Made by a program: the position numbers and the translations under genes. Below the pieces are notes generated by a model. The model worked only from the letters and a program-made list of their open reading frames with translations, searched no databases and was not told the origin of the DNA. Of a stretch of DNA of 64,000 nt, positions 1 through 18,286 are shown piece by piece; position 1 is the first letter of the stretch, and every line of letters starts with the position of its first letter. The stretch is from Candidatus Omnitrophota bacterium (GTDB lineage Bacteria > Omnitrophota > Gorgyraeia > Zapsychrales > Fredricksoniimonadaceae): assembly GCA_903836515.1 (NCBI GenBank), contig CAILQW010000048.1, positions 316 to 64,315 on the forward strand, in the 5' to 3' direction.

Positions 1-1
1 G

Positions 2-100
2 GCAGATACTATGGGGCAAATAACAGGCACGATCACAGTTAATACCAATGATAAGCTTGTTTTGATTGAACAAATTGATGAAATAATAAAGAAAACTTAG
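2..100 (+). CDS. 3' end of an upstream ORF cut by the window edge; its position directly 5' of hsdS suggests the C-terminus of the type I methylase subunit (HsdM), but only 33 codons are visible
   Basis: Open frame ...ITVNTNDKLVLIEQIDEIIKKT* ends at TAG 98-100, 5 nt before the hsdS ATG; too short for any domain assignment. Confidence 0.25.
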   Translation, partial: ADTMGQITGTITVNTNDKLVLIEQIDEIIKKT

Positions 101-105
101 CACAT

Positions 106-1425
106 ATGAATACTTCCTCCAATGCCAGGCTAAAGAAAGGAGAGGGCCTCTCGTTAAAGATTGGGCTTATCCCTGATGGTTGGCATAGATATAAATTATA
201 TGAATTGATGGAAATTACATCGAGCAAGCGAATATTTTTCTCCGAATATATTTCCGCAGGCATTCCTTTTTATCGCTCAAAAGAAGTAATTGAGAAGTTT
301 AATAATAAAAGCGTTTCAACCGAGCTGTTCATTAGCAAAGAACGATTTGAGGACATCAAACAAAAGTTCGGTGTGCCTCAAAGAGGCGATATTTTATTGA
401 CTTCCGTCGGAACACTTGGAGTGCCATTTCTTATTGAGGATGATACTGATTTTTATTTTAAGGATGGAAATTTGACATGGTTTCTGAATTTTAAACGCGA
501 TTCAATTTTGAGTGAATATTTATATTATTGGTTAGCGTCGAACACGGGAAGGCAGAAGCTACTTGATTCATCCATTGGCTCAACTCAGCAGGCGTTAACA
601 ATAGCAGGGCTAAAGAATATTGAAATAGATGTCCCTTCTTGTGAGGAACAGCATAGTATCGCAAAAACTCTCCATTGTATCGACGGAAAAATTAAACTTA
701 ATCACAGAATGAACGAAACCTTAGAGGGAGTAGCGCTGGTACTGTTTAAGCGTTGGTTTGTGGATTTCGAGTTTCCAGATGCCAAAGGCCGACCGTATAG
801 GTCTTATGGTGGAAAGATGGTCAGCTCGGAATTAGGGCCAGTTCCTGCTGGATGGAGGGTCGTTCCTTTAACAGAGATGGTTGACGTCCTTGGTGGAGGC
901 ACTCCATCAACAGGAGTCTCTTCCTATTGGGATGGAGAAATTCCTTTTTTTACTCCTAAGGACGCATCGGAGGCAAGCTATGTCACAAGAACGGAAAAGA
1001 CTGTGACCCAAGAAGGCCTTACTCACTGCAATAGCCCGCAGTTTCCTCATGGCACCGTTTTTATTACCGCCAGAGGTACGGTTGGTAAAGTGTGCATGGC
1101 CGGAGTTCCTATGGCGATGAATCAATCCTGTTACGCCCTGAAGGGAAAAGAATTGCGACAGCTTTATGTGTTCTTTCTGATAAAAGACATCGCACAAAAG
1201 CTAATACAGCAATCCCATGGCACTGTCTTTGAAACCATTACGACGCAAACATTCCAGAGAACCATGGCCATCCGGCCAGAAGCAGACGTCGTGAATTTGT
1301 TTTGTACGAAGGTCGAATGTTTATACGCCCAGATCCTCAATAATATAAATGAGTCGGCATCTTTGGGAACTATTCGCGATTCTATTTTGCCAAGAATGAT
1401 GTCCGGAAAGATGACGGTGTCCTGA
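106..1425 (+). CDS. hsdS: Type I restriction-modification specificity subunit HsdS (two target-recognition domains)
   Basis: 439 aa; central conserved HsdS spacer (VPSCEEQHSIAKTLHCIDGKIKLNHRMNETLEGVALVLFKRWFVDFEFPD) separates two variable TRD-like halves; C-terminal conserved segment (ILPRMMSGKMT); sits immediately upstream of hsdR. Confidence 0.85.
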   Translation: MNTSSNARLKKGEGLSLKIGLIPDGWHRYKLYELMEITSSKRIFFSEYISAGIPFYRSKEVIEKFNNKSVSTELFISKERFEDIKQKFGVPQRGDILLTSVGTLGVPFLIEDDTDFYFKDGNLTWFLNFKRDSILSEYLYYWLASNTGRQKLLDSSIGSTQQALTIAGLKNIEIDVPSCEEQHSIAKTLHCIDGKIKLNHRMNETLEGVALVLFKRWFVDFEFPDAKGRPYRSYGGKMVSSELGPVPAGWRVVPLTEMVDVLGGGTPSTGVSSYWDGEIPFFTPKDASEASYVTRTEKTVTQEGLTHCNSPQFPHGTVFITARGTVGKVCMAGVPMAMNQSCYALKGKELRQLYVFFLIKDIAQKLIQQSHGTVFETITTQTFQRTMAIRPEADVVNLFCTKVECLYAQILNNINESASLGTIRDSILPRMMSGKMTVS

Positions 1426-1426
1426 T

Positions 1427-2311
1427 ATGGATAAGATTTTTTTCTTTATCGAAGGGCATCCAGTATTGATTTCCATTGGCATCGTTTTCTTGGGAGGAGT
1501 CGGGTTTCTCATTAAGAAATGGTTTTTCAATGAAAACACCTCCGCTGTCCCTTTTATTAAAGCGGGTGTGAGCATTTCAGCTGGTGGTGACATCGTTGTC
1601 GGGAATAAAGTGGTTCAGCACGTTTCGTCTAATACGGACACCAATGTTTCTGCAACAGACCGGCTGACGAATATTTTATTTGATGCTCACAATTGGCAGT
1701 ATGACGGCTTAAGTAAGGCATATTATAAGTCTGCGCCAGAATTCACGCTTGAATATGATTCAAAAGAACAAGCCGTTGAGGAACGGTGGTGGGGCAACTT
1801 TCTTGGTAAGGTTACAAAGTTCGATATTGTCTTTAAGTATCACGCGACGGCACTAAAAACAGCATCTTGCTGTCGTTTCGAGGGAGAGGCCTTTAGTATC
1901 CCGTATCCTGATGTGGATTATGTACGCATTGACGTTAGCAGGCAGAAAGATGCGCCCAATACGTATTCGTTATTTTATTTTTTAGAGGATAGCTTTGAAT
2001 TCGCGTTGCTTTTTCATTTATTTGGGGCGAATGCTTCTATCGTCGACAAAGAAAATCGGGAACGGCTTTTTAAAAAAGATGCAATAGCTTCTCAGGTTAA
2101 GCCTCCGATCAGATCGTTGCCGTTCATAGTTTTTAAGAACAACGAAGAAAAGAATGCTTTTATAAAGAAGTTGGAAGGCCATATTGGCGATTTTTTCCGT
2201 CAAAAAGCAATAACGCCTACAATGCAATTAGGGGCTCAGAAATTGCAGGAAGAAAAAGCTTTTGCGTATTGGGCGTATGATTTGTTTTTTAAATTAAAGG
2301 ATATTGAATAA
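1427..2311 (+). CDS. Hypothetical protein with a single N-terminal transmembrane helix, wedged between hsdS and hsdR with overlapping stop and start codons at both junctions
   Basis: 294-aa ORF; hydrophobic segment [18 protein letters not shown] near the N-terminus; its ATG lies 1 nt after the hsdS TGA and its TAA (2309-2311) overlaps the hsdR start region; no recognisable domain. Confidence 0.6.
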
Positions 2312-2321: not shown

Positions 2322-5300
2322 ATGATGAGGCAAATTATTACTGAATCCGAAGTCGAACAAGCCACGCTGGATATCCTCTCTGCTCAGGGGTACGCGATTG
2401 TCCATGGGCCGGATATAGCGCCTGATGGCCCTAATCCCGAAAGGCAGAGCTACGCGGACGTGGTCCTTGTCGGACGGCTTCGGGAGGCGATAGACCGGAT
2501 TAATCCCAAGATCCCGGCCGAGGGCAAGGATGAGGCGGTCAGGAAGCTTCTTCGTGTTGAAAGCCCCGACCTGCTGGTTAACAACCAGCGGCTTCATGCC
2601 ATGCTGGTCAATGGTGTGGATGTTGAGTATCGCCGGGATGATCAGGTCGTTTCAGATAAAATCTGGCTTTTTGATTTTGCCAATCTCACCAAGAATGAGT
2701 TCCTCGCCGTTAACCAGTTCACCATTATTGAAAACAATCACAATCGCCGACCGGACATCATTCTGTTTGTGAACGGACTGCCGATTGTTGTGCTTGAGCT
2801 CAAGAACCCTGCGGATGAGAATGCGACTGTTCACTCGGCCTTCAAACAGTTTCAGACGTACAAGCTTCAGATTCCTTCCCTCTTTCATTTCGCTGAGGTT
2901 TTGATCGCTTCTGATGGCTTTGACGCTAAAGCCGGGACGATCACGTCAGACTGGGAGAGGTTCCAGCCGTGGAAGACCGTCGACGGTAAGGATAAGGCGC
3001 ATGCGGCTATCCCGCAGATCGAAGTGCTCACCAAGGGTATGCTTAATAAAACGGTGTTGTTGGATCTGATTCGGCATTTTGTTGTTTTTGAGCAGGAGAA
3101 GGATAGCAAGGACGGCTCGCTCAAGATTTCCAAGAAGATTGCCGCGTATCATCAATATTACGCGGTCAACAAAGCCATCGATGAAACTCTTCGCGCGGCT
3201 TCGGCCAAAGGTGACCGGCGTTGCGGTCTCATTTGGCATACGCAGGGCTCCGGCAAGAGCTTGAGCATGGTTTTCTACACTGGCAAGCTTGTATTATCTT
3301 TGGATAATCCGACGGTGATGGTGCTGACAGATCGCAATGACCTTGACGATCAACTTTTCGGGACTTTCTCCCGGTGCAATGAACTTTTACGGCAGTCTCC
3401 GGTTCAGGCTGAAACCCGGTCACAGCTGAGGGATTATTTGAAGGTCTCCTCCGGCGGTGTTGTTTTTACTACTATTCAGAAGTTTTTGCCTGAAGAGCGT
3501 GGCGATACCTATCCGATTCTTTCCGATCGGCGGAATATTGTGGTGATTGCGGATGAAGCCCACCGGAGCCAATACGACTTTATTGATGGCTTTGCCCGGC
3601 ATATGCGTGATGCCTTGCCCAACGCGTCCTTCATCGGGTTTACCGGCACGCCAATTGAGCTTAAAGATAAGAATACCCGGGCAGTGTTCGGTGATTACAT
3701 TGACATTTATGACATTGAGCAGGCGGTTCACGATGGCGCTACGGTCCGTATTTATTATGAGAGTCGTCTGGCCAAGCTGGAATTAAGTGATGCTGAGCGT
3801 CCACAGATTGATCCGAACTTTGAAGAGGCGACCGAAGGCGAAGAGGTTAGCAAAAAGGAAAAGCTTAAAAGCAAATGGGCCCGGATGGAGGCTATTGTCG
3901 GTAGTGAGAAGCGCGTCCGGCAGATTGCCAAGGATATCGTGGATCACTTCGAGGAGAGGTCTAAAAACCTTGAAGGCAAGGGCATGATCGTTTGTATGAG
4001 CCGCCGGATTGCTTTTGACCTCCACAATGAGATTGTGAGGTTGCGCCCCCAGTGGTATCAAAAGGACGATGACAAGGGCGCTTTGAAAGTCATTATGACT
4101 GGCTCAGCGTCAGATCCGGTGGAGTGGCAGGAGCACATAAGGAACAAGCCACGCCGCCGGGACATTGGCGACCGGATGAAAGATCCTTCTGACCCGCTCA
4201 AGCTGGTCATTGTCCGTGACATGTGGCTAACCGGTTTTGATGTGCCGTCGCTTCATACGATGTATATCGACAAGCCGATGCGCGGTCATGGCCTTATGCA
4301 GGCGATCGCTCGCGTCAACCGCGTCTTCAAGGATAAGCCCGGCGGTCTGGTCGTAGACTATTTGGGCATTGCTGATGATCTTAAGAAGGCACTTTCCGAA
4401 TATACGGAAAGCGGTGGTGAGGGTAAGCCGACACTCGATCAGGAAGAGGCCGTCGCGCTCATGCTGGAGAAATATGAGGTTGTTACCGGCATGTTTCACG
4501 GATTTGATTTCCGCAAGTTCTTTTCATCATCCATTACAGAGAAAATGACGATCATCTCACTCGCTCAGGAACATATCCTTGGGCTTGATAAGGGCAAGGA
4601 TCGGTTTCTGGGTTATGTGACGCAGTTGTCACAAGCATTCGCGTTGTCTGTGCCTCACGCGGAGACATTTAAGATCAGGGATGATGTGGGCTTCTTTCAG
4701 GCAGTACGGTCCAGGATCGCTAAGTTTGAAACCGGCACCGGCAAGACAGATGACGACCTGGATTCCGCGATCAGGCAGATTATATCCAAAGCAGTTGTTT
4801 CCGACCGGGTGATTGATATCTTTGAAGCCGCCGGGATCAAGAAACCGGATATCTCTATCCTTTCTGATGAGTTTTTGGCAGAGGTTAAGGGGATGCCGCA
4901 TAAGAATCTCGCCTTTGAGCTGTTAAAGAAGCTTCTTAATGATGAAATCAAATCTCGCTCAAAACGGAATCTTATTCAGGGCCGGTCTTTTGCCGAGCTT
5001 CTGGAGCAGGCGATCAAAAAATATCAGAACAAGGCGATCGAAGCGGCCAAGGTCATTGAAGAATTGATCTCATTGGCCAAGAAGATGCGCGAGGCGGACA
5101 AACGTGGCGAGGATCTGGGGCTGACTTTTGATGAGGTGGCTTTTTACGATGCCCTTGAAGTCAACGATAGCGCGGTTAAGGTTCTTGGTGATGATGAGCT
5201 TCGGATGATTGCCCGGGAGCTGGTCCAAACGGTTCGCAATAATGTCACGATTGACTGGACGCTCAAGGAAAGCGTGCAGGCTAAGCTCCGGATCATGGTC

Positions 5301-5906
5301 AAGCGCATCTTGCGCAAGCACGGGTACCCACCGGATAAAGAAAAGAAAGCTACAGATACGGTCCTCGAACAGGCGACCCTCTTGTGCAAAGACTGGGCCG
5401 ATGTTGCGCCCGTTCGCGGAGCAGATGAGACACTTTTCTTCAGTGATGTGATCTCTGAAGGGGCTTTCGAGGAGGGTTATGTGCCGGTTTATGACCTTCA
5501 GGCCGTGGCAACGGCATTTGGCGAGCAACCAGCGCCATCAGTTAAAGGCTGGAAGCCGATGAATGGCCGAAAGATCAGTAAAGACATGTTTATTGCGCGA
5601 GTGGTCGGAAAATCCATGGAACCGACCATTGCGGACGGCAGCTGGTGTTTGTTCCGGCTTGAACGCGGAGGTTCCCGGCATGGTGTTTATCTGATTGAAT
5701 CCCGGCAGGTCAAGGACCCGGAAACCGGCTTCGCCTTTACGATCAAGCGGTATCATAGCGAAAAGGAAGATTTTGGTAACGGCCAGTGGAAGCACAAAAG
5801 GATTACGCTATCTCCAGATAACAAAACGTTCCCGGATATTATTATCGAGAATGTCGGCGGAGATGATTTTCGGGTTGTGGCGGAATTTGTGAATGTTATT
5901 TGTTAA
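2322..5906 (+). CDS. hsdR: Type I restriction enzyme R subunit HsdR (SF2 helicase-nuclease) with an appended C-terminal LexA-like S24 peptidase domain
   Basis: HsdR N-terminal region ([17 protein letters not shown]...); Walker A ([12 protein letters not shown]); DEAH box ([10 protein letters not shown]); motif III (FTGTPIE); helical C-terminal region typical of HsdR; then the S24-like tail. The ORF track starts at TTG 2304; ATG 2322 preceded by GGGGA is preferred. Confidence 0.85.
5481..5903 (+). other. LexA/UmuD/CI-like S24 serine autopeptidase domain fused in-frame to the C-terminus of HsdR
   Basis: [16 protein letters not shown] / [18 protein letters not shown] / FTIKRYH align with LexA VPLVGRVAAGEP / VSGMSMKDIGIMDGDLLAV / VTVKRLK; Ser codon 5613-5615 and Lys codon 5745-5747 of the catalytic dyad are both present. 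Confidence 0.7.
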
Positions 5907-6005: not shown

Positions 6006-7610
6006 ATGAAGATCGGACGCAATGACCTGTGTTTTTGCGGGAGCGGAAAAAAGTATAAGAAATGTTGCCTGGGTCGTGAGTTGCCCGGGGAACTTAAGCA
6101 TAAGACTCATGATATTTTGCCGGATCGATGGGAGATCGATTATGGCGAGCCGTGTTTGGACAAGGATTTCTTTGACCACAATGGATTGGCAGAATTTTCA
6201 GCAGCCAGAATGATCCAGGCGGCCATGCTGTTCCCCGATGCTGTTGAAGAGGTTGCCAGCGAGGTTCGTCTTGAAACGACCGGGTATCTTGCTGAACTTA
6301 AGGAGATCGAGGAGCTGACGAGGCCGCAGGAGATCGTGCGGTTTTTGAAAAAAGGTCCGGACCGCCTCAATTATCCGCAAGTGTTGGATAAATTTCTGGA
6401 TCATGAAAAAGAAACGGTGCTGTTATTGCTCGAAGAGATGCGAAGTTCCGACAATGAATTATTTGTGGAATGGGCTGTAAAATTGTTCTATGAATCGGAT
6501 TATGTACTTGCTGAAGATATCCTTGAGATTATCGAATTGCATCAGCATGATGCGTATGCGGTTTCTTTGCTTTGTATTTTGTTGGGTTCTTATGATCATC
6601 CCGCTATCCCGAAGTTGTTATGGGATTACTTTCAATATTTCAGGAAGAACTTCCGCGATGAGCTGTACCACGAAGGACCCTTGCTGGCGCTGCGTGAGAT
6701 CCACGAATATATGAATGAGCCGCGGGTATCAGATCCGGAAATGGCCTTGTGGGATGAAGATCGGCTGGCTACTTTTGACGAGAAGGAGCTGGTTGCGCGC
6801 ATGAAAGCGTTGGGTGTTCCTTTGGATAAAGAGACCTTTTTGAAAGATATACAGGGTCTTCATGCGGCAGAAAAGCTGGTTGATCGTTGGGTTGAGAAAT
6901 ATTCCATTCATTCAGTTGGGAACGACGAGGATTTTTTGTGGTTTGGTGCCATGGAGCTTTGGAAACGCTGGGCGCCAGAGGTGATGTTCGATGAGCGTTT
7001 GAGCGATATGATGCAGCGCGGATACGATTGTTTCAACCGAAGAAAGAATCGTGAAGGCTGTGATCTTTGGCTGGAGGTATGGGAAGTCTTCAAGGCGCGG
7101 CACGCGGGGCACGGCAGATCTCTGGAGGGAGTGGACAAGCAATATAGTGGTTCCCAGACTTGGCACAATTGGTGTCAGGATCTGGAGATGAACCTCGGCA
7201 ATCTTGTTCGTGTTTGCCCGGAGTACGCTCCCCGGGCGGTTACGTATTTCAGGGAATTTCGTTTGTTGTTGCCGGAGTCCGATCCATTGATTGTTCAGAA
7301 TATGATGATGGCCGAGGCTGAAGCCCTGATTTTTGGAGGAGACTTGGTTGCGGGAGAGGCTCTTTTTCGGAAAGTAGTGGAATCTTTTTCGGATGATGTT
7401 TGGGGTTATATCCGTTGGGGGGATGTGTTTGCATCGTCGATGTGGTCTTCTTTGGTGCCGCAGGATTTGACAAAAGCTGAAAAAATTTACCGCATGGCGA
7501 TTGGCCGCGGTCTAAAAGAGGAAAAGGAAGTCAATCGCCGGATCAGGGATATGGGAGAAACGCGCCAGGCTCACAAGAATGATCGGATAGGGTCAAGGTT
7601 GTTGAAATGA
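6006..7610 (+). CDS. SEC-C zinc-binding-motif protein (N-terminal CFCGSGKKYKKCC) with a large helical domain of unknown function
   Basis: 534 aa; canonical SEC-C motif at residues 8-22; good RBS GGAGAGG upstream; the remainder matches no family I recognise. Confidence 0.6.
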   Translation: MKIGRNDLCFCGSGKKYKKCCLGRELPGELKHKTHDILPDRWEIDYGEPCLDKDFFDHNGLAEFSAARMIQAAMLFPDAVEEVASEVRLETTGYLAELKEIEELTRPQEIVRFLKKGPDRLNYPQVLDKFLDHEKETVLLLLEEMRSSDNELFVEWAVKLFYESDYVLAEDILEIIELHQHDAYAVSLLCILLGSYDHPAIPKLLWDYFQYFRKNFRDELYHEGPLLALREIHEYMNEPRVSDPEMALWDEDRLATFDEKELVARMKALGVPLDKETFLKDIQGLHAAEKLVDRWVEKYSIHSVGNDEDFLWFGAMELWKRWAPEVMFDERLSDMMQRGYDCFNRRKNREGCDLWLEVWEVFKARHAGHGRSLEGVDKQYSGSQTWHNWCQDLEMNLGNLVRVCPEYAPRAVTYFREFRLLLPESDPLIVQNMMMAEAEALIFGGDLVAGEALFRKVVESFSDDVWGYIRWGDVFASSMWSSLVPQDLTKAEKIYRMAIGRGLKEEKEVNRRIRDMGETRQAHKNDRIGSRLLK

Positions 7611-8425
7611 TGCGACAGGAGAATGCGGTGAGCACGGGATTGACCTTTCAAGAAATCTGTCCGGACTTCGACGAATGGCCAGACAGATGGCAAATAATGT
7701 CCGAGGACAGACCGTATGGACGGGAGTTGCTGACTATTTTCAAGCCTTTTTGTGAGGATCTGGTGGCCAAAGGTTTCTCGAAAAGCACGATTAAAAGACA
7801 TTTGGGTTTCTTGTGGGTTTTGGGCGGCGAGCTGATCGAGGAGATCAATGAGTACGAGGGAAAAAGGACCCGACCGGCCATGGACTTGTTGATGGATCAA
7901 TTGGACCCGGATGGAGGCCCTTATTGTCGTCATTTGGAAGGCGAGTCAGAGCATCGTGCTTTTGACGCGACCTGTAAGAAGCTTTACAAGTTCCTGCAGG
8001 AGAGTCAGGCGAAGGATCGTGAAGCCGGCGCTCCGTCCGGCTACGATACATCGTGGGATCTTGTTTTGGATGAAAAAGGTAATCGGCCAACTAATGAAGC
8101 CGCGTATGATGAGAAAAGCCGTGAATGGCAATGGCGTGACTGGAAGAAGTGGTTGGAAGAAAATCTCGTTTTCCCATTTGATGTTATTCGCAAAGAGGAT
8201 GATGACGATTCTATCGAGATTGCGGCAAATGAGCCTTTCAGCGTTGGGCATCAGATGACCGCGTTTGGATTGGCCGGTGAGATGGGCGGGTACGGGATTA
8301 TTGCTCGGGTGAAGGAACGTCGCCGAAAAGGGCACGCTCCTCTTTGTGACCTTGAGGTGACGCCTCCCGGCGACAGGAACTTCTGGCCTGTTAGGGAGTA
8401 TGTTGTCTGGTTTGCTAACCGGTGA
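7607..8425 (+). CDS. Hypothetical acidic protein, translationally coupled to the SEC-C protein gene
   Basis: 272 aa; the start ATG overlaps the upstream TGA (ATGA at 7607-7610); no recognisable domain; followed by palindromes TTGGTCGACCAA and CTACCGAG...CTCGGTAG. Confidence 0.5.
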   Translation: MMRQENAVSTGLTFQEICPDFDEWPDRWQIMSEDRPYGRELLTIFKPFCEDLVAKGFSKSTIKRHLGFLWVLGGELIEEINEYEGKRTRPAMDLLMDQLDPDGGPYCRHLEGESEHRAFDATCKKLYKFLQESQAKDREAGAPSGYDTSWDLVLDEKGNRPTNEAAYDEKSREWQWRDWKKWLEENLVFPFDVIRKEDDDDSIEIAANEPFSVGHQMTAFGLAGEMGGYGIIARVKERRRKGHAPLCDLEVTPPGDRNFWPVREYVVWFANR

Positions 8426-8592: not shown

Positions 8593-9981
8593 ATGAATAA
8601 TAAAACTTTTCAGAAAATAATTGGCGCGGCAGAATCTACGACTATCGAGTGGAAGAAATCTCTCTCGGTATTTCACGAGATCATGGAGACCATATCCGCA
8701 TTCTCGAATACCGAAGGCGGGAAGATTCTTGTTGGCGTTTCTGATGATGGCGAGGTCTTGGGCGTTCAGATCGGCAAGGGAACGATGGAAGATCTGGTGA
8801 ACAAGATCGGACAGCATACCGACCCCAAAGTTTTTCCAAAGATCTCTGTTAAGAAGGTTGGCGGCAAGGACGTAATCGTTATTGATGTGAAAGAGTCACG
8901 GGATCATCTGATTCTGGCGGATGGCTTGCCGTATAAACGGGTTGGCCGGACATCGCCGAGGATGAGCAAAGATGAGTACGAGCGCCTGATTTTGGAGAAG
9001 CACCGGGGTGCGTTGTCTTTTGATGGTGAGGTTTGCAAGGGCGCCGTGATGACCGATATTGATGCTGAAAAAGTCATGCACTTTCTGTCTGTTGCGAGGC
9101 AGGAGCGCGGGCTTGATATTGATGCGAAGAGTTCGGTCAAAGATGTTTTGATGCGGCTTGATTTACTTAAAGGGAGCAAGTTGACGAATGCGGCTATTTT
9201 GTTGTTCGGGAAGAGGCCGCGGTCATTCTTTACCCAGTCTGAAAGCAAGTGTGTCCGGTTTAAAGGACTTGATGTCACGGGAGAGATGATTGATCTTAAG
9301 CCGATCAATGGTGATATTGTTGCTCAGCTCAGGGATATTGAGAAGTTTATTTATGATCATATTTCCATGCGAGCATGGATTGAGTCGGGGAAAATGGAGC
9401 GGCAGGAGAAATGGGAATATCCTCCCAAGGCTATTCGTGAAGCTTTGGCGAATGCCATGGCGCATCGGGATTTTCGTACAACATCGAAAGTCCAGGTCAG
9501 AATTTTTGATGACAGGATTGAGTTCTGGAATCCGGCCATATTACCGCAAGGCTGGACAGCAGAAACGCTCAAGCAAAAACATGAGTCCAAGCCGTTTAAT
9601 CCGTTGTTGGCAGAGGCCTTCTTTTGGATCAAGTATGCTGAAGAAGTCGGCACTGGCACGGGCAAGATCATTACATGGTGCAGGGGGTGGGGTTTGCCTG
9701 ATCCGGACTTTGAGTATGCTGGAAGTAGTCTGGTTGTAACGTTGCGCAAGACGAAATTAACCGAACAGTATTTGAAAGATGCGAATCTTTCAAAACGGCA
9801 GGTGAGTGCTTTTGAGCATATGAAGACAGGTCTTAAAATGACCAGTATCGAATATGCGAAAATGTTTGGTGTAACAGACAGGACGGCGCGGAATGATTTG
9901 TCTGCGATGGTTGAAAAGGGGCTTGTTAAGAAAGTCGGGACGGGTGATAGAAACACTGCGTATGTGTTAGCGGAAATTTAG
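8593..9981 (+). CDS. COG2865-type protein: Schlafen/AlbA_2 (divergent AAA) domain plus HATPase-like domain plus C-terminal HTH, the family often mis-annotated as RecG-like or as a transcriptional regulator
   Basis: 462 aa; N-terminal AlbA_2-like region (IEWKKSLSVFHEIMETISAFSNTEGGKILVGVSDDGEVLGV); central ATPase-like region; C-terminal HTH (SIEYAKMFGVTDRTARNDLSAMVEKGLVKK). Confidence 0.7.
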   Translation: MNNKTFQKIIGAAESTTIEWKKSLSVFHEIMETISAFSNTEGGKILVGVSDDGEVLGVQIGKGTMEDLVNKIGQHTDPKVFPKISVKKVGGKDVIVIDVKESRDHLILADGLPYKRVGRTSPRMSKDEYERLILEKHRGALSFDGEVCKGAVMTDIDAEKVMHFLSVARQERGLDIDAKSSVKDVLMRLDLLKGSKLTNAAILLFGKRPRSFFTQSESKCVRFKGLDVTGEMIDLKPINGDIVAQLRDIEKFIYDHISMRAWIESGKMERQEKWEYPPKAIREALANAMAHRDFRTTSKVQVRIFDDRIEFWNPAILPQGWTAETLKQKHESKPFNPLLAEAFFWIKYAEEVGTGTGKIITWCRGWGLPDPDFEYAGSSLVVTLRKTKLTEQYLKDANLSKRQVSAFEHMKTGLKMTSIEYAKMFGVTDRTARNDLSAMVEKGLVKKVGTGDRNTAYVLAEI

Positions 9982-12588: not shown

Positions 12589-13845
12589 ATGAATATCGAA
12601 AAAGTGAGCATCAACAGGATTAACCCTGCTGCTTATAACCCCAGAATCGACCTTAAGCCGGGGAACAAGGAATACGAGAAGTTGAAGCAAAGCATTGATA
12701 CCTTTGGATATGTGGAGATTTTGGTCTGGAATTGCCGCACCGGCAATCTGGTGGGTGGGCATCAAAGGCTCAAAATCCTGCTTGCTCAAGGGGTTGAGGA
12801 GGTGGAGGTCAGCGTGGTTGACCTTGATATAGAGAAGGAGAAGGTCCTGAATCTGGCCCTGAATCGGGTTAGGGGTGATTGGGATCAGGACAAACTGGCC
12901 GTATTGATGCAGGAGTTAACAAAATTGCCTGATTTCAATACAGCTCTGACCGGATTCAATCTTCCGGAGATCAACAAGATCCTCACTGACTTTGAGGTAG
13001 CCAATGAGGATGTGTTTAACGGCGCTTCCATAGATCCCAAGGACAATGCTGTTACGGTCCTTGGGGATCTCATTGAATTGGGCGGTCATCGGATTTTATG
13101 CGGTGATTGTTCCAAGCCCGAAGATCTGAAGCGGCTGTTTGGCGATCAAAAAGCCGATATGGTCTTCACGGACCCGCCTTACGGATGTTCGTATAACAGC
13201 GGCAATCGACCCGGGGCCAACGGTAACGGGAAATGGGCCATGATCGAAAATGATGACAAGCCCCAGCCCGAGTATGAGAAATGGTTAGCGGGTGTTATTG
13301 ATAACTTGACCCCGTTTATTGCAACGGGCGCTCCGTTTTATATCTGGAACGGCAGTCGTCAGTTTGCCCCCATGTACGAGATGCTTCTTAAGAACGGGAT
13401 GCATATATCGTGCGTTATCACGTGGGCAAAAGAATCGTTCTCGGCTGGTTATGTTGATTATCACCACCAGACCGAGTTTTGCATCTACGGATGGAAAGAT
13501 CAAAACGGCGCGCACAGGTTTTTCGGCGCAAATAATGAAACCAACCTCTGGCAGATCAAGCGTGATTCCAGAAGCGATGCCATTCATCCCACTCAGAAGC
13601 CTGTGGCTCTGGCCCATCGAGCGATCAGGAACAGTTCAAGAGGCGGGGAGATCGTTTTCGACGCGTTCTTAGGATCAGGGACCACCTTGATCGCGGCGGA
13701 TGGGTTAAAGCGCCGGTGTTTTGGAACTGAGATTAAACCTCACTTTGTTGACGCCATTGTTCGGCGATACGTCAAGGTTGCGGGTGCAGGCGGTGTTTCA
13801 AAAGAGGTGTTAACAAAATACAAACTTGGGGAAGGGGGGCAGTAA
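12589..13845 (+). CDS. ParB-like nuclease domain fused to a DNA (N6-adenine/N4-cytosine) methyltransferase; a phage-type orphan methylase
   Basis: N-terminal ParB/Srx motif (NLVGGHQRLKIL); DPPY motif (VFTDPPYGCSY) followed by the AdoMet motif (FDAFLGSGTTLIAA); this order indicates a beta-class amino-methyltransferase; the architecture is typical of phage packaging regions. Confidence 0.8.
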   Translation: MNIEKVSINRINPAAYNPRIDLKPGNKEYEKLKQSIDTFGYVEILVWNCRTGNLVGGHQRLKILLAQGVEEVEVSVVDLDIEKEKVLNLALNRVRGDWDQDKLAVLMQELTKLPDFNTALTGFNLPEINKILTDFEVANEDVFNGASIDPKDNAVTVLGDLIELGGHRILCGDCSKPEDLKRLFGDQKADMVFTDPPYGCSYNSGNRPGANGNGKWAMIENDDKPQPEYEKWLAGVIDNLTPFIATGAPFYIWNGSRQFAPMYEMLLKNGMHISCVITWAKESFSAGYVDYHHQTEFCIYGWKDQNGAHRFFGANNETNLWQIKRDSRSDAIHPTQKPVALAHRAIRNSSRGGEIVFDAFLGSGTTLIAADGLKRRCFGTEIKPHFVDAIVRRYVKVAGAGGVSKEVLTKYKLGEGGQ

Positions 13846-13877
13846 AACAACAAGGTTGGTCAAACGGTAAAACAACA

Positions 13878-14306
13878 ATGAAAGTTAAAAAAGAAAGGGA
13901 TCATTTTATGGTTTTCAAATATCAAAGTAAGCGGCATCCGGATGCAATCAATGTTTTGCGTTTGGTTGAAGATGAAGACTTGGATGTAAGTGAAATAACA
14001 AAAGAGATGCGACAGGGTTGCATTGAAATCCTCACACGCGAGGCATACTCAGACTCAGCAATTGCAATGAAATTAAGAACAACAATAAGTGTTGTTGAGT
14101 CGGATCAAAACGAAATACAAGCGGTCAATTCAAAGGCCTTGTATGTCAGTCGTGTGCGAGTTGAGATTGAGACGGCTAAAGGGAAGTCACGAGAGATTCG
14201 AAGAACTCGCCAGGACTTTAAGAAGGGGCCCGGTGAGGATGCCTATAAAGCCATAACAAGGGAGATCGTTATCAAGGAGGCAAGAAAACATGCCAAACGA
14301 AACTAA
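13878..14306 (+). CDS. Small phage-associated protein with a putative sigma-70 region-4-like HTH
   Basis: 142 aa; the QGCIEILTREAYSDSAIAMKLRTTISVV segment resembles an HTH; alternative start at ATG 13908. Confidence 0.45.
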   Translation: MKVKKERDHFMVFKYQSKRHPDAINVLRLVEDEDLDVSEITKEMRQGCIEILTREAYSDSAIAMKLRTTISVVESDQNEIQAVNSKALYVSRVRVEIETAKGKSREIRRTRQDFKKGPGEDAYKAITREIVIKEARKHAKRN

Positions 14307-14964
14307 TAAGGAAGAGCTTTCGACCTTTGAAATGCTCAAACGGATTCAGGCGGGGAGCCTGAATCCGAGGACGCTGACGGAAGAGCAGCGGCAGGAATGC
14401 GTTGAACTGTTAAGGCTGGAAGGCCAGACGCACGCGGCCATTGCGGAACTTCTCAAGTGGAACATCAAAACAATCAAACGCGACTGGAATGAAATTCGCA
14501 GCAGGAATGCGAAAAAACCGACACCGGAATTCGCGCTGCGTCATATCGCGGAGTTGATCGAGCAGTCCGGTTCAAAACACGACCATCTGACGCGAATGGC
14601 GCGTGGAGATGATGGAACGGTTCAGGAGCGCTCTCAGGCGGAATACTATGCGTTTAAAGTCCTGAGTGAGACCACGCAGTTGTTACAGACCATGGGGTAT
14701 TTGCCATCTAAGGCAACGAAGTTCATGGGGGATGTTTATCACCACCATGACGATGGCCGAGATCCCAAGGAAATGAGAGCCGAGATCGACCGGATAGAAA
14801 AGATCGTGTCCGAGGAGGGGATACAAGATCCGGCCATGCAGGCACGGTTGGAGGCGTTAAGAAAGAAAGTCGACCTGGCTGAAGTGGATAAACAAATAAC
14901 CGATTTGTCGGCGAATGTCGCTGATAAAACAACAACAAACAAGGAGGATGGAAGCAATGGCTAA
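14290..14964 (+). CDS. Putative terminase small subunit (HTH-containing protein immediately upstream of and overlapping terL)
   Basis: 224 aa; RBS AAGGAGG; HTH-like segment EEQRQECVELLRLEGQTHAAIAELLKWNIKTIKRD; synteny with terL. Confidence 0.45.
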   Translation: MPNETNKEELSTFEMLKRIQAGSLNPRTLTEEQRQECVELLRLEGQTHAAIAELLKWNIKTIKRDWNEIRSRNAKKPTPEFALRHIAELIEQSGSKHDHLTRMARGDDGTVQERSQAEYYAFKVLSETTQLLQTMGYLPSKATKFMGDVYHHHDDGRDPKEMRAEIDRIEKIVSEEGIQDPAMQARLEALRKKVDLAEVDKQITDLSANVADKTTTNKEDGSNG

Positions 14965-16570
14965 TATTAATCTCAAGGAATTCGGTAAACAGAACGTGAT
15001 GGTATTTGCGAGGACATATTTCTCGCATTACCTGAAAACAAATCCGTGTGGGTTTCATCGGGAGCTTTGCGAATTGTTGCAAGGCTTGAATACAAAACGC
15101 GGTGGCCGATTGGCGGTCGCCGCCCCGCGTGGAAGCGCGAAGAGTACCTTCGTCAGTTTGATCTATGTTTTATGGTGCATTTGTTATTCCAAAGAGCAGT
15201 ACATCGTTTTGCTCTCGGACACCAGCGATCAGGCTGAAGGTCTTCTGGCGCACGTTAAAAATGAGCTCGAGAACAACGAGCATTTGAGACGTGATTTCCC
15301 GGAGGCTTGTATCGCGGAGGATGATAAAAAGTTGGGCGTTTGGAAAAAAGAGGAGATCGTCACAAAGAATAACATTAAGGTGACGGCGCTCGGCGCAGGC
15401 CAGAAGATACGAGGCCGGAGGCATCAGGAACACCGTCCCACGTTGATCATTCTTGATGATATTGAGAATGATGAAAACACGCAGAACGGTGAATCAATGG
15501 ACAAGCTGAACGAATGGTTCGAGCGGGCGGTCCTGAAAGCGGGAACGACCACAACCAATGTTGTTTTGGTTGGGACCATTCAGCATTACGGGTGTCTTTT
15601 GTCCCGGTTAACAAAGGAAGAAGCAACGGGATGGAATAAACGGATCTACCGGTCGGTTATTTCATCTGCCAAGAGGGAAGACCTCTGGGCAAAATGGTTC
15701 ACGCTTTACAGAGGGCTCGATTGTTACGGTCAAAATGAAGGGGCCGCTGCGGCAGCGGACTTCTTTAAGGACAACGAGAAGGAAATGATAGACGGGGTAT
15801 CTGTCCTCTGGCCTGAAAAGGAAAGTTATCAGGACTTGATGGTCATGCGTGAAGAGGAAGGCGAGAGCAGCTTCAACGCTGAGAAACAAAATGAACCGGT
15901 TGATCCGAAGAATGCATTCTTTAAATGGGATGGCTTTCAGTTCTGGGATCAGCAATACAGGAATGAGGAAGAGCTAAGATCGGCGTTTGGCGACAAGCTG
16001 GCATATTATGCGGCTGTTGATCCGAGTTTGGGGAAGCCCGGTAAGCGTGGGGATTATTCGGCGATAGTGGTCATTGCTAAGCATGTTGATACGAAAGCGG
16101 CATTTGTTTTGGTCGCTGACATTGCTAAAAGAACCCCGGATAATCTGGTGCAGGCCGTTATAAACCTTGGCCGATTCTACAGGTTTAGCGCGGTTTTCGT
16201 TGAGGCCAACCAGTTTCAGGAGCTGCTGGTTCGTGACATTGAAGAGAGAGCGTACAGCATGGGGATTTCGCTCAATATTCAAAGGGTTACGAGTCGGCTC
16301 GACAAGCTGGCCCGAATTCAAGGTCTTGAGCCTTGGATCACTCAAGGAAAAATCAAGTTCGCTCAAACCCAGAGGCTATTGCTGGATCAGTTTAGGCATT
16401 TTCCAAAAGGGGCGCATGATGACGGTCCGGACGCTTTGGAGATGGCGATCTCAGGGCCTGATAAACGAAAAGGCGGGTTTGTCATAGTTGATCTTAATAA
16501 TGACCCTTACGATGACGATGATGACGACGATGATGATGGGCCGTGTTATAGCGTCAATTCAATCATATAA
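14957..16570 (+). CDS. terL: Phage terminase large subunit (ATPase plus nuclease) with a C-terminal poly-Asp tail
   Basis: Walker A (AAPRGSAKST); LLSDTSDQAEGLL; C-terminal RNase-H-like nuclease region; a D9 run near the C-terminus; start chosen at ATG 14957, 9 nt after AAGGAGG, while the ORF track begins at 14915. Confidence 0.85.
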   Translation: MANINLKEFGKQNVMVFARTYFSHYLKTNPCGFHRELCELLQGLNTKRGGRLAVAAPRGSAKSTFVSLIYVLWCICYSKEQYIVLLSDTSDQAEGLLAHVKNELENNEHLRRDFPEACIAEDDKKLGVWKKEEIVTKNNIKVTALGAGQKIRGRRHQEHRPTLIILDDIENDENTQNGESMDKLNEWFERAVLKAGTTTTNVVLVGTIQHYGCLLSRLTKEEATGWNKRIYRSVISSAKREDLWAKWFTLYRGLDCYGQNEGAAAAADFFKDNEKEMIDGVSVLWPEKESYQDLMVMREEEGESSFNAEKQNEPVDPKNAFFKWDGFQFWDQQYRNEEELRSAFGDKLAYYAAVDPSLGKPGKRGDYSAIVVIAKHVDTKAAFVLVADIAKRTPDNLVQAVINLGRFYRFSAVFVEANQFQELLVRDIEERAYSMGISLNIQRVTSRLDKLARIQGLEPWITQGKIKFAQTQRLLLDQFRHFPKGAHDDGPDALEMAISGPDKRKGGFVIVDLNNDPYDDDDDDDDDGPCYSVNSII

Positions 16571-16919
16571 AAGGGCGGATCATGGCGGACAGCAGCTGAA
16601 GGGCGCAGGTTTTCGCGGACTGCGCTCTTCTCTTTTGCTCACAATTAAGCAGTGTCCCCGCGAGGGACATCGACGGAAAGGGGACATTTCTGGTTTTCAT
16701 GAGGGGACATGTTGTAAGTGTTTGATCTTGAAGGCTTTCATTGTTTTTGTCTCGTCGTGAAAAGGGTCAAGAAGGACATGTTTTGGTTCTATTTGTCCCT
16801 ACAAACTTATCTCTAAAACGCTGGTTTTGGATTTTTTGTGATAGTATAAGCAGAGCTTGTTGGAGAGGTAGACAGCGGCGTGTCACCACTCCCCCCAGCT
16901 TGTTTTTTCTCTTAAAAAA

Positions 16920-16957
16920 CTAAAACCTCGTTCCCTTTGGGCGAGGTTTTAGTTTTC
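16920..16957 (+). terminator. Rho-independent terminator hairpin (CTAAAACCTCG ttccctttggg CGAGGTTTTAG) followed by TTTTCTTT
   Basis: Perfect 11-bp stem followed by a T-run on the + strand. Confidence 0.6.
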
Positions 16958-16973
16958 TTTAGAAGAAAAACAA

Positions 16974-16997
16974 CACCCAAAAGGATTCTTTTGGGTG
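16974..16997 (-). terminator. Hairpin CACCCAAAA-ggattc-TTTTGGGTG; acts as a terminator for the minus-strand genes and is followed by a T-run on the minus strand
   Basis: 9-bp stem; the minus-strand read continues TTGTTTTTC; sits at the 3' end of the recombinase remnant. Confidence 0.5.
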
Positions 16998-16998
16998 C

Positions 16999-17424
16999 TT
17001 ATTCCCGTCGTGGAAAGATGCAACTGGCCCCGATATTGCCAAAATCCTGATGCCAGAGAGTATGGGGAGGCGTATAACAAGTATAACGACAGCACGCAAA
17101 GTGAATGATCTTGCCGTGATTATGGATCAGATCGTTGATCTTGATCTTGTCGATGTCATTGCGGGTCATCCGGTCGGTGATGTCAAAGATGATGTGCTTG
17201 ATCTTTGGATGGGCTATGGCAAATTCGATCACTTGATTAAATGCCACGCGATCTTTCTTTTTATTCCAGGCAGATTCGATGACCCTCCAGGTTTTGACGA
17301 TCCTCAGGTTTCTGCGATCCGCATAGTCTTGCCCAAGCCTTTCTTGTGCATCTAAAGAAAAGCCGTCATTTTGCTTCTTGTTGGAGATGCGGCCATAATG
17401 GAGGGCGTCTTCTTGTTGCTCCAT
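16999..17424 (-). pseudogene. Serine recombinase (resolvase/invertase family) N-terminal catalytic-domain remnant, truncated after about 110 residues
   Basis: YGRISNKKQNDGFSLDAQ (cf. YARVSTxxQ..SLxxQ) and FDITDRMTRN (cf. DRLGRD) are present, but the frame then degenerates (..ACCRYTCYTPPHTLWHQDF..) and runs into the terminator hairpins. Confidence 0.6.
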
Positions 17425-17426
17425 GG

Positions 17427-18263
17427 TTACTTTACCTTTGCAGGTTTTGGCAGAAGATTCTTTTGTGGGACCTGGACGTAGTTGACCTTGCTGACGACCT
17501 TCTGGCCGGTTTCCTGTTCCAGTTTCTTGCGCGCGATCCCGGCAACGCCGCCGCCGCGAACAGCCACGGCTTTATTGGCCACGAATCCTTCCGGGTGCTC
17601 GACCTTGGTGATCTGGGTGGTTGACGCTTCACCCAGCATGGAGAAGATGAGTTCAAGATCCGTCATGTGGTCGCGCAGGTTCTCGTGCTTGAGACCTTTC
17701 AGTTTCTTGTAGTTGCTGGGTGTCAGGCCAAAGGTCGCTTTGGATATTTCGGCGGTCAGGATCTCGTACTCGCGGTTCTCCTGGACCCCGTGCTTCTTCC
17801 ACTGGTCGGTCAACTCTTCCCGGATGGCAATGCCACGCATCCGTTTCTCTATCCAGTCATCGGAATATCCCTTGGCCTTGTAAAGCGCACGCGTGCGCTT
17901 GGTACCCAGTTCCGGGTTCTCGATCTCCTGGATGCGCTCGTAACCGACCCGTGCCAGCCATTTCTTGAACGGCTCGGCCTTTGGGGAGGGGATGGATTGG
18001 ATGATCCGGAATACGCCTTCTGTGTTGGCACAATTCGTTTCCCGCCGCTTGCCATCGGGCGCCAACAGTTCAAGTGGGGTACAAATTGTACCCCAGTTGC
18101 TGTCCAGTTGAGAATCGCGCTGGCGCATCTTCTTGATGTATTGCCTGATGTCAGCGCTGTCAGTTAAGGCTTCGATGACATCTGCTACAGAAAACCACCA
18201 CTCATCGTTATGAATAGTCTTGCGGATCGCGATCTTTGTTTCTGGTGCTGGTTGTTGTGTCAT
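17427..18263 (-). CDS. Bro-N domain protein (phage antirepressor / DinD-like)
   Basis: N-terminal Bro-N signature (KIAIRKTIHNDEWWFSVADVIEAL); start moved to the internal ATG (MTQQ, plus-strand CAT 18261-18263), which has an AAAGGA RBS and avoids a 73-nt overlap with the XRE gene. Confidence 0.7.
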   Translation of the reverse strand: MTQQPAPETKIAIRKTIHNDEWWFSVADVIEALTDSADIRQYIKKMRQRDSQLDSNWGTICTPLELLAPDGKRRETNCANTEGVFRIIQSIPSPKAEPFKKWLARVGYERIQEIENPELGTKRTRALYKAKGYSDDWIEKRMRGIAIREELTDQWKKHGVQENREYEILTAEISKATFGLTPSNYKKLKGLKHENLRDHMTDLELIFSMLGEASTTQITKVEHPEGFVANKAVAVRGGGVAGIARKKLEQETGQKVVSKVNYVQVPQKNLLPKPAKVK

Positions 18264-18286
18264 ATGCGTTGTCCTTTCGGATGGTG

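What the first reader, a model, noticed from the sequence alone, without database searches (positions are those of the whole stretch)
1427..2311. Unknown membrane-anchored gene inserted, with overlapping stop and start codons, between hsdS and hsdR
A 294-aa ORF with one N-terminal TM helix and no recognisable domain starts 1 nt after the hsdS stop. Its own stop overlaps the hsdR start region, so it is co-transcribed and co-translated with the restriction genes. Genes wedged inside type I R-M operons are frequently accessory defence or abortive-infection modules (established examples are prrC and rloC). This one matches none I know.
Basis: inference. Interest (0 to 1): 0.55.

Follow-up and report, generated by a model that had tools for sequence, protein, structure and literature searches.

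The report
Membrane-anchored phage-sensor gene inside restriction operon
The gene wedged between hsdS and hsdR is real and encodes a membrane-anchored version of a rare candidate phage-sensing domain that elsewhere is fused to known immune "killer" domains. It is therefore most likely an extra anti-phage module riding in the restriction operon, and this has not been tested by experiment.

Summary
The 294-aa ORF (1427..2311) is real and under purifying selection. The identical protein sits in the same hsdS–ORF–hsdR arrangement on 11 metagenome contigs. It starts one base after the hsdS stop. That stop-N-ATG junction is conserved in seven loci. The "overlap" with hsdR holds only for a mechanical TTG; the likely hsdR start is ATG 2322, 10 nt after the stop.

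It has a recognisable relative. Residues 73-258 match PADLOC candidate PDC-S50 (E 5.5e-16), which was defined by being embedded in defence operons. The protein has two modules:
- **N-terminal module:** one TM helix plus four hexapeptide repeats, reused on other C-termini.
- **C-terminal domain:** an α/β domain (model pLDDT 93.5) with no Foldseek match in PDB.

In about 100 relatives this C-domain follows a Schlafen nuclease, TIR, DUF4062 or the Avs4 effector domain. That is the pattern of a shared sensor with swappable effectors.

Best reading: a one-protein defence module, with a cytoplasmic sensor and a membrane effector or anchor, translationally coupled to hsdS. Defence activity and mechanism are inferred. 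It is a new variant of a known candidate kind, of moderate interest.

The parts
106..1425 (+). hsdS (439 aa, two target-recognition domains). Its conserved C-terminal tail ...LPRMMSGKMTVS* abuts the ORF.
   Evidence: Pfam Methylase_S, E 1.8e-37. The same tail motif precedes the homologous genes in L004, L005, L013, L014, L017 and L018.
1423..1429 (+). Junction TGA-T-ATG: hsdS stop, one base, ORF start. This is a likely site of termination-reinitiation coupling.
   Evidence: Sequence. The same stop-N-ATG spacing is kept in seven loci whose HsdS proteins are only about 30% identical. Coupling itself is inferred.
1427..2311 (+). The 294-aa ORF, a two-module protein (stop codon TAA at 2309-2311).
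1427..1459 (+). Short N-terminal tail (aa 1-11) with the conserved I-E-x-H-P motif. Predicted to lie outside the cytoplasm.
   Evidence: E9 is invariant and H11 is at least 90% conserved across 14 N-modules. Topology is inferred from the positive-inside rule: the KK at aa 30-31 follows the helix.
1460..1513 (+). Single transmembrane helix (aa 12-29, [18 protein letters not shown]) with a conserved GG-x-G small-residue motif.
   Evidence: Hydropathy peak. G26, I29 and F34 are nearly invariant across N-modules, and G23, I29 and K30 are conserved in the family alignment.
1556..1627 (+). Four hexapeptide units (aa 44-67: [24 protein letters not shown]), with an aliphatic residue at position 1 and Gly at position 4 in the first three units (His in the fourth).
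   Evidence: Read from the sequence. G47, D55, G59 and K61 are invariant. Homologue P0015 lacks exactly one 6-residue unit. There is no Pfam Hexapep or Bactofilin hit, and the AF2 confidence here is low.
1649..1996 (+). β-rich subdomain of the C-terminal domain (aa about 75-190: one helix and eight strands). It carries the family's few near-invariant residues: L84, W90, P104, W121, P159 and P161.
   Evidence: AF2 model with pLDDT 93.5 and pTM 0.89. Conservation. PDC-S50 match. A distant copy occurs in the 208-aa P0006 family (hhalign probability 86%, E 5e-6).
1997..2308 (+). Helical subdomain of the C-terminal domain (aa 191-294), ending in the conserved F-A-Y-W-A-Y-D motif.
   Evidence: AF2 model. 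Alignment A2.
2322..5906 (+). hsdR (1194 aa from ATG 2322; the mechanical ORF opens at TTG 2304).
   Evidence: Pfam HSDR_N, SWI2_SNF2, T1R_D3-like and T1RH-like_C. Start from the gene caller on the identical contig and the ortholog alignment.

Best explanation
ORF 1427..2311 is a horizontally acquired accessory anti-phage module carried inside a type I R-M operon and translated in tandem with HsdS. It is a single polypeptide with two parts.

The C-terminal 220 residues face the cytoplasm and form a PDC-S50-type α/β domain. I interpret this as a sensor that binds a phage-derived cue, most likely a phage protein.

The N-terminal about 67 residues are a short external tail, one TM helix with a GG-x-G packing motif, and four hexapeptide repeats. 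They take the place that Schlafen tRNase, TIR, DUF4062 or Avs4-type nuclease domains occupy in relatives. I interpret this part as the output module. On sensing, the protein would self-associate through the TM and hexapeptide segment and compromise the inner membrane, an abortive-infection-type outcome. This would back up the R-M system when a phage escapes restriction.

Shown here: the gene is real and conserved; the domain architecture; the homology to PDC-S50; the effector-swapping pattern; the recurrent R-M-embedded position; the conserved coupling junction.

Inferred: topology, sensor role, membrane-effector role, and defence activity itself.
For: 1. PADLOC PDC-S50 matches aa 73-258 (E 5.5e-16). 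PDC-S50 is one of 145 candidates derived from genes embedded in BREX, DISARM or type I R-M systems.
2. An exhaustive profile search of 1.84 billion representatives found 121 relatives. Of 122 sequences scanned, 102 match PDC-S50. 64 carry an N-terminal Schlafen/AlbA_2 domain, 4 a TIR domain and 2 DUF4062. One carries the Avs4 N-terminal effector domain (E 5e-46) and one is ThsB-like. 55 of 78 long members keep the Ex4[ED]FK Schlafen catalytic motif.
3. Prokaryotic Schlafen domains have been shown by experiment to be tRNase effectors whose fused C-terminal domains act as transferable phage sensors (PMC13056530).
4. Across the broad family the conserved C-domain residues are only Trp, Pro and Leu. 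There is no catalytic-looking constellation, which fits a binding domain.
5. The N-module is itself reused. At least 14 clusters at 50% identity carry it, in front of a β-subdomain only, a PtuA/AbiL-like ABC ATPase (P0054), a second TM (P0044) or other tails. Invariant residues lie in and around the TM helix, more than a passive anchor would need.
7. Soluble relatives sit after hsdS next to Shedu SduA_C (L003) and next to a NACHT protein in an integrase-bearing island in E. coli.
8. The stop-N-ATG junction is conserved in seven loci.
9. GC is about 10 points lower than in hsdR. The operon is flanked by AbiE, IS elements and another Schlafen-type gene.
Against: - No experiment exists for this gene. 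I found no paper mentioning PDC-S50 by name.
- The TM and hexapeptide segment is modelled with low confidence (pLDDT about 30). It matches no known pore-forming or effector family.
- A single TM helix is a weak basis for a membrane-disrupting effector. It could be only an anchor.
- The C-domain has no structural match in PDB or BFVD by Foldseek (best E 0.16 and 5e-3). Its sensor role therefore rests on architecture logic only.
- Some relatives (P0043, P0134, P0136) sit alone between CMD and Cupin metabolic genes.
- Much of the R-M association of the N-module could reflect vertical descent within one hsd lineage. HsdR is 80% identical between the window and L004.
- The family is very rare. Only one locus was found in 185,579 species genomes for close relatives.
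Confidence: 0.4

Rival explanations
1. Membrane-tethered binder or decoy without a killing function. The TM segment only anchors the sensor domain at the inner membrane. There it sequesters a phage protein, for example an ejected protein, a tail or assembly chaperone, or an anti-restriction protein. This lowers phage yield or shields the R-M enzyme, in a non-abortive way.
For: - The related Schlafen system RorSlfn5 senses by directly binding a phage tail assembly chaperone and acts non-abortively (PMC13056530).
- The ORF has lost any enzymatic effector.
- It is always found with R-M-type systems.
Against: - The N-module is strongly conserved in sequence and is reused with unrelated C-termini, including an ABC ATPase. 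This suggests that it does something specific.
- Stoichiometric sequestration is an expensive strategy for a gene coupled to low-level hsdS translation (inference).
Confidence: 0.2
2. PrrC-like guard of the R-M complex. The C-domain binds HsdS, HsdM or HsdR and is held inactive. A phage anti-restriction factor that disables the enzyme releases it, and this triggers the membrane module.
For: - It occupies the same hsdS-hsdR slot as prrC (established knowledge).
- Its translation is coupled to HsdS at a conserved junction.
- All N-module proteins are R-M-adjacent, including in two non-type-I systems.
Against: - Soluble members of the same C-domain family work in contexts without any R-M system: an E. 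coli NACHT island, a CMD-Cupin slot and a RhuM-MnmA locus.
- HsdS partners are only about 30% identical between loci.
- It shares no sequence similarity or P-loop with PrrC or RloC.
Confidence: 0.12
3. Superinfection-exclusion-type or localisation factor. This would be a membrane protein that blocks DNA entry at the inner membrane, or that tethers the type I enzyme to the membrane where phage DNA enters.
For: - It has an N-terminal single-pass anchor and a small size, like known Sie proteins (established knowledge).
- A second embedded TM protein, orf179, lies between hsdM and hsdS in the same operon.
Against: - The C-domain's relatives are soluble cytoplasmic fusions to nucleases and TIR domains.
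- There is no homology to any Sie family.
- No homologue was found in phage genomes by tblastn.
Confidence: 0.1
4. Selfish passenger with no host benefit: a cassette maintained only by hitch-hiking in a recombination hot spot at the hsdS 3' end.
For: - The slot is clearly a cassette-exchange site with different cargo in each locus.
- A duplicated hsdS tail is fused to the end of P0005.
- Its GC content is atypical.
Against: - Strong purifying selection acts over saturated synonymous divergence.
- The domain family is conserved across phyla and effector types.
Confidence: 0.08

Closest known systems
PADLOC phage-defence candidate PDC-S50 (Payne et al. 2024, guilt-by-embedding), e.g. E. coli WP_038989309 / WP_001459743, annotated 'AlbA family DNA-binding domain-containing protein'
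   Same: The C-terminal α/β domain is homologous. HMM match E 5.5e-16. BLASTP against the E. coli protein gives E 3e-30 with 25% identity over aa 44-285. Both are found embedded after hsdS (L003).
   Different: PDC-S50 proteins are soluble, about 370-390 aa, with an N-terminal Schlafen/AlbA_2 nuclease domain carrying Ex4DxK. The window protein replaces that whole domain with a TM helix plus hexapeptide repeats, and it matches only profile positions 170-341 of 387.
Prokaryotic Schlafen defence proteins (pSlfn; RorSlfn5, Perez Taboada et al., Nat Microbiol 2026, PMC13056530)
   Same: They share the logic of an N-terminal effector and a C-terminal phage-sensing domain in one polypeptide. The soluble relatives of the window protein are pSlfn-type proteins. 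RorSlfn5's size (43.1 kDa) and catalytic positions (E15/D20) resemble those of PDC-S50 members (E14/D19 in the E. coli protein).
   Different: The window protein has no Schlafen domain.
PrrC / RloC anticodon nucleases embedded in type I R-M loci
   Same: The genomic position is the same, between hsdS and hsdR, and the gene is co-expressed with the restriction genes. The presumed role is also the same: a second line of defence.
   Different: There is no ABC-type NTPase domain, no anticodon-nuclease domain and no sequence similarity. This protein is membrane-anchored.
Membrane-effector defence proteins with variable sensors (e.g. CBASS Cap15 and 2TM effectors, Pycsar PycTM, retron 2TM effectors)
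   Same: A TM segment stands where other family members carry nuclease or NADase effectors. This is the pattern seen in those systems (established knowledge).
   Different: Those effectors have two or more TM helices or a β-barrel and respond to nucleotide signals. Here there is a single TM helix plus a short hexapeptide stretch, with no homology to any of them.
P0006-type cassette (TM-hexapeptide protein of 208 aa + DUF2971 + HEPN-AbiU2) in the same hsdS-hsdR slot of orthologous operons (L004, L017)
   Same: It has the same N-module (61% identity), the same stop-N-ATG junction after hsdS, the same HsdR lineage with an S24 tail, and a distantly related β-subdomain (hhalign E 5e-6).
   Different: It lacks the helical subdomain and comes with two extra genes. 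The window cassette is a single gene.

Membership tests
PDC-S50 (PADLOC PDLC05032) | Significant match to the PDC-S50 HMM | tested here: met
   E 5.5e-16, 56.7 bits, aa 73-258 against profile 170-341/387. Full-length members score 1e-84 to 1e-90.
PDC-S50 (PADLOC PDLC05032) | Full architecture: N-terminal Schlafen/AlbA_2 domain followed by the C-domain | tested here: not met
   No PF04326 hit, and no match to profile positions 1-169. The N-terminus is a TM helix plus hexapeptide repeats.
Prokaryotic Schlafen nucleases (pSlfn) | Slfn nuclease domain with the Ex4(E/D)xK motif | tested here: not met
   No AlbA_2 hit. The motif is absent from the sequence. It is present in 55 of 78 long relatives.
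pSlfn5 'Ig-like' phage-sensor domain (RorSlfn5) | Sequence or structure homology of the C-domain to the RorSlfn5, PagSlfn5 or SfoSlfn5 C-terminal domain | not testable with these tools
PrrC / RloC | N-terminal ABC-type NTPase (Walker A) plus C-terminal anticodon-nuclease domain | tested here: not met
   No Pfam, NCBIfam or PADLOC hit other than PDC-S50. No GxxxxGK[ST] is present outside the TM helix (sequence).
PrrC / RloC | Gene embedded in a type I R-M locus between hsdS and hsdR | tested here: met
Left-handed β-helix hexapeptide (PF00132) or bactofilin (PF04519) repeats | Match to the family HMM; several turns of hexads | tested here: not met
   No Pfam hit at E<=1. Only four hexads are present, seen by eye and supported by a 6-residue indel in P0015.
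Abortive-infection or defence gene in general | Experimentally shown protection against phage | not testable with these tools
   Only context and architecture evidence is available. No paper mentions PDC-S50.

The most novel reading that the evidence does not exclude
The TM-plus-hexapeptide N-module would be a previously undescribed, portable membrane effector, or a membrane-docking device. It is plugged onto different cytoplasmic sensors: the PDC-S50 domain, a β-subdomain alone, or a PtuA-like ATPase. It is always translated by reinitiation off the hsdS stop codon. The R-M operon would thereby carry a built-in, stoichiometrically coupled 'last-resort' membrane killer, possibly guarding the R-M complex as PrrC does. 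The PDC-S50 C-domain would then be a new fold of phage-protein sensor shared by tRNase, TIR, nuclease and membrane effectors.
Probability: 0.25. Interest if true: 0.65.

Novelty: new variant of a known kind. Interest (0 to 1): 0.5.

Why it matters
If the reading is right, this locus offers three things:
1. A natural "effector swap" that identifies the PDC-S50 C-domain as an autonomous phage sensor with no solved structural relative.
2. A minimal single-pass membrane module that may act as an immune effector.
3. A clear example of a cassette-exchange hot spot at the 3' end of hsdS, where type I R-M operons collect second-line defences that are translationally coupled to the specificity subunit.

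All three can be tested directly with chimeras, following the approach already used for Schlafen sensors. If the reading is wrong, the locus is just another uncharacterised passenger in a defence island.

Tried and rejected
- **Family and sequence searches.** Pfam, NCBIfam and PDB-sequence searches of the ORF found nothing. A profile search of PDB with the family alignment hit only CbCash, through the Schlafen part of the relatives and not the C-domain.
- **Full-length model.** It was too poor for the N-module (pLDDT about 30).
- **Wider homologue searches.** A profile search with the 70-aa N-module returned only two short proteins. The species-genome scan found a single locus, and alignment A3 was too divergent to scan with. 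tblastn against phages found nothing, and against plasmids found only soluble PDC-S50 proteins.
- **Two-gene system with orf179.** I tested whether the upstream 179-aa gene forms a system with the ORF. It has no similarity to the 177-aa gene upstream of P0004 or the 150-aa gene in L004. Rejected.
- **SEC-C link.** I tested whether the SEC-C protein next to hsdR is related to the SEC-C protein next to the E. coli PDC-S50 gene. They share only the 18-residue motif. Rejected as coincidence.
- **RorSlfn5 sequence.** I tried to obtain it to test identity of the sensor domains. No supplements or accession are held.
- **Promoter and terminator scan.** Nothing above shuffled expectation inside the operon.

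Full report
**1. The observation**

The + strand carries hsdS (106..1425), a 294-aa ORF (1427..2311) and a 1194-1200-aa hsdR.
- Pfam confirms HsdS (Methylase_S, E 1.8e-37, two TRDs).
- Pfam confirms HsdR (HSDR_N, SWI2_SNF2, T1R_D3-like, T1RH-like_C).

The hsdS stop (TGA, 1423-1425) is followed by one base and then ATG 1427.

The ORF stop is TAA at 2309-2311. The mechanical hsdR ORF opens at TTG 2304, which overlaps it. Three points favour a later start:
- The gene caller on contigs that carry the identical protein starts HsdR at the ATG equal to window 2322.
- The orthologous HsdR of L004 aligns from there.
- GGGGA lies just upstream.

The likely arrangement is therefore a 10-nt gap, not an overlap. 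No promoter-like or terminator-like sites above shuffled expectation lie inside the operon. Co-transcription is safe. Coupling to hsdS is plausible, and coupling to hsdR is not required.

**2. It is a real gene**

- Only 14 relatives were found by the indexed search. Three are full-length orthologues at 42-60% identity.
- Against two of them, synonymous sites are saturated (pS 0.75-0.79) while pN is 0.23-0.36.
- The identical protein is on 11 metagenome contigs with the same neighbours.
- GC is 0.40-0.43 in the ORF against 0.50-0.53 in hsdR, with a sharp step near 2300. This fits an acquired cassette.

**3. Anatomy: N-terminal module**

Alignments split the protein in two. Residues 1-67 form the N-module:
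- a short tail with a conserved I-E-x-H-P motif;
- one hydrophobic helix (aa 12-29) with a GG-x-G motif, followed by KK;
- four hexads ([24 protein letters not shown]), with an aliphatic residue at position 1 and Gly at position 4 in the first three hexads (His in the fourth).

Homologue P0015 lacks exactly one hexad. By the positive-inside rule the C-terminal part is cytoplasmic (inference). This agrees with the soluble relatives described below.

The N-module is poorly modelled (pLDDT about 30) and matches no Pfam family.

**4. Anatomy: C-terminal domain**

With a 38-sequence alignment, residues about 69-294 gave a confident model (pLDDT 93.5, pTM 0.89). It has two subdomains:
- a β-rich subdomain (one helix and eight strands, aa about 76-187);
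- a helical subdomain (aa about 190-293).

Across the wide family only L84, W90, P104, W121, P159, P161 and P232 are nearly invariant. That looks structural rather than catalytic.

**5. What the C-domain is related to**

PADLOC's PDC-S50 model matches aa 73-258 (E 5.5e-16, profile positions 170-341 of 387). PHROG 29016 matches similarly. PDC-S50 is one of 145 "phage defence candidates" defined because they were found embedded in BREX, DISARM or type I R-M systems. I found no paper that mentions it by name.

An exhaustive profile search of 1.84 billion cluster representatives found 121 relatives at E below 1e-3.

| Feature among the 122 sequences scanned | Count |
|---|---|
| Match PDC-S50 | 102 |
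| N-terminal Schlafen/AlbA_2 domain | 64 |
| TIR domain | 4 |
| DUF4062 | 2 |
| Avs4 N-terminal effector domain (E 5e-46) | 1 |
| ThsB-like TIR | 1 |

In addition, 55 of 78 long members keep the Ex4[ED]FK catalytic motif.

A full-length member on an E. coli IncHI1B plasmid (WP_038989309) aligns to the window protein over aa 44-285 (E 3e-30). Homologues occur in 46 of 5,426 complete E. coli genomes. There the gene lies next to a NACHT protein in an integrase-bearing island.

**6. Why I read the C-domain as a sensor**

One domain stands behind Schlafen tRNase, TIR, DUF4062, an Avs4-type nuclease domain and a TM module. That is the signature of a common sensor with interchangeable effectors.

For Schlafen fusions this has been shown by experiment. 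Prokaryotic Slfn domains are tRNase effectors. Their C-terminal domains determine which phage protein triggers them, and they can be swapped between orthologues (PMC13056530).

RorSlfn5 in that work is 43.1 kDa with catalytic E15/D20. This is close to PDC-S50 members (E14/D19 in the E. coli protein). I could not obtain its sequence, so identity of the two sensor domains is untested.

**7. The N-module is also portable**

At least 14 clusters (at 50% identity) carry it. It precedes:
- the full C-domain (window, P0002-4, P0015);
- a 208-aa form whose C-part is a distant copy of the β-subdomain only (hhalign probability 86%, E 5e-6 against Schlafen-fused members);
- a PtuA/AbiL-like ABC ATPase (P0054);
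- a second TM (P0044) and other tails.

Invariant residues lie in and around the helix (E9, G47, D55, G59, K61; G26, I29 and F34 nearly invariant). A passive anchor would not need this.

**8. Context**

An identical contig extends upstream of the window (L020). Its gene order is: IS elements, AbiEi-AbiEii, HsdM, orf179, HsdS, ORF, HsdR. orf179 is another N-terminal-TM protein, and its tail is window 1..100.

Other loci with an N-module protein:

| Locus | Arrangement |
|---|---|
| L004, L017 | hsdS–P0006/P0010–DUF2971-like–HEPN_AbiU2–hsdR |
| P0003 contig | hsdS–209 aa–234 aa–P0003 |
| L005 | hsdS tail–P0002–DUF2513–SIR2_2 |
| L013 | hsdS remnant–P0008–hsdR remnant |
| L001 | MmeI-like methyltransferase–177 aa–P0004–DUF5655 |

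All 8 N-module loci are therefore R-M-embedded or R-M-adjacent.

The stop-N-ATG junction after the conserved hsdS tail (…MSGK.(R/T)V(N/S)*) is kept in seven loci. HsdS is only about 30% identical between the window and L004, while HsdR is 80% and the N-module 61% identical.

Soluble relatives show mixed contexts:
- hsdS–P0005–Shedu SduA_C–AAA_15 (L003);
- RhuM–X–MnmA (L006);
- a variable CMD–X–Cupin slot with no defence neighbours.

**9. Mechanism**

I commit to the following model, at confidence 0.4. The ORF is a one-protein accessory defence module. Its cytoplasmic PDC-S50-type domain senses a phage product. The TM and hexapeptide module then self-associates and damages or gates the inner membrane, an abortive or growth-arresting outcome. 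It is expressed in step with HsdS as a second line behind restriction.

Shown here: architecture, homology, effector swapping, context and junction conservation.

Inferred: topology, sensing, membrane action and defence itself.

Rivals:
- a membrane-tethered binder or decoy with no killing function (0.2);
- a PrrC-like guard of the R-M complex (0.12);
- an exclusion or localisation factor (0.1);
- a selfish passenger (0.08).

**10. Comparison and novelty**

- It is not a PrrC or RloC. It has no NTPase or anticodon-nuclease domain, although it occupies the same slot.
- It is not a pSlfn. It has no Schlafen domain.
- It is only a partial PDC-S50, matching the C-domain alone.

I file it as a new variant of a known candidate kind: the PDC-S50 sensor domain with a membrane module in place of the nuclease. 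The family is very rare. Only one close locus was found in 185,579 species genomes, and the TM form is seen only in metagenomes and MAGs.

Interest is moderate at 0.5. The gene is uncharacterised and the effector swap is informative. However, the domain is already catalogued as a defence candidate, and the embedding principle is established.

Noticed in passing
window 5571..5885 (HsdR aa 1084-1188): HsdR carries a C-terminal LexA-like Peptidase_S24 domain (Pfam E 2.9e-6). The catalytic-type motifs GKSMEP and IKRY appear intact. The same fusion is present in the orthologous HsdR of L004 and on the identical contigs. A self-cleaving or RecA-responsive tail on a restriction subunit is unusual and unexplained.
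   Followed up: partly
window 1..100 (tail only); full gene in L020 8135..8674: A second embedded gene, orf179, lies between hsdM and hsdS. It also has an N-terminal TM helix followed by a charged, helix-like region. It is unrelated to the genes in the same slot of L004 (150 aa) or upstream of P0004 (177 aa).
   Followed up: partly
window 1423..1429; L004 2090-2096; L005 106-113; L013 1280-1286; L014 455-461; L017 634-640; L018 468-474: The hsdS 3' end (…LP.LMSGK..V.*) plus one base plus ATG is a conserved junction. It precedes different cargo genes, so it looks like a cassette-exchange and translational-coupling site.
   Followed up: yes
L003 979..2211 (protein P0005): The soluble homologue P0005 ends with …IPKLMSGEVRVKV. 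This is a copy of the hsdS C-terminal tail of the gene just upstream (…LMSGEVMVKL*). It looks like a footprint of insertion by recombination within the hsdS 3' end.
   Followed up: partly
window 8593..9981: This ORF is a Schlafen/AlbA_2 + HATPase_c_4 + HTH protein with an intact ESTTIEWK (Ex4ExK) motif. It belongs to the most common prokaryotic Schlafen architecture class. It is a second Schlafen-type candidate defence gene 2.7 kb downstream of hsdR.
   Followed up: partly
window 6006..8425: A SEC-C-motif protein (534 aa) has a stop that overlaps the start of a CcbP-like protein (272 aa), directly after hsdR. The pair is conserved on the identical contigs. Its function is unknown. It shares only the 18-residue SEC-C motif with the SEC-C protein next to the E. 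coli PDC-S50 gene.
   Followed up: partly
L004 2094..4677; L017 638..3273: In orthologous operons the hsdS-hsdR slot holds a three-gene set. It comprises a TM-hexapeptide protein with the β-subdomain only (208 aa), a DUF2971-like protein (about 315 aa) and a HEPN AbiU2 protein (about 320 aa). This may be a multi-gene system built on the same N-module.
   Followed up: partly
window 12589..19199: Downstream of the defence genes lie an N6_N4 DNA methylase, a sigma-70 region-4-like protein, a large-terminase-like protein, a Bro-N protein and an ISL3 transposase fragment. Core genes follow (an RND efflux pump with an OEP component, which implies a diderm host). The first about 20 kb therefore looks like a mobile or prophage-derived island.
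   Followed up: no
L007-L012, L026 (gene at about 8001 in L007): In one lineage the soluble homologue occupies a small variable slot between CMD and Cupin_2 genes. It occurs as 381-aa, 398-aa and truncated 215-aa forms, with no known defence neighbours.
   Followed up: partly
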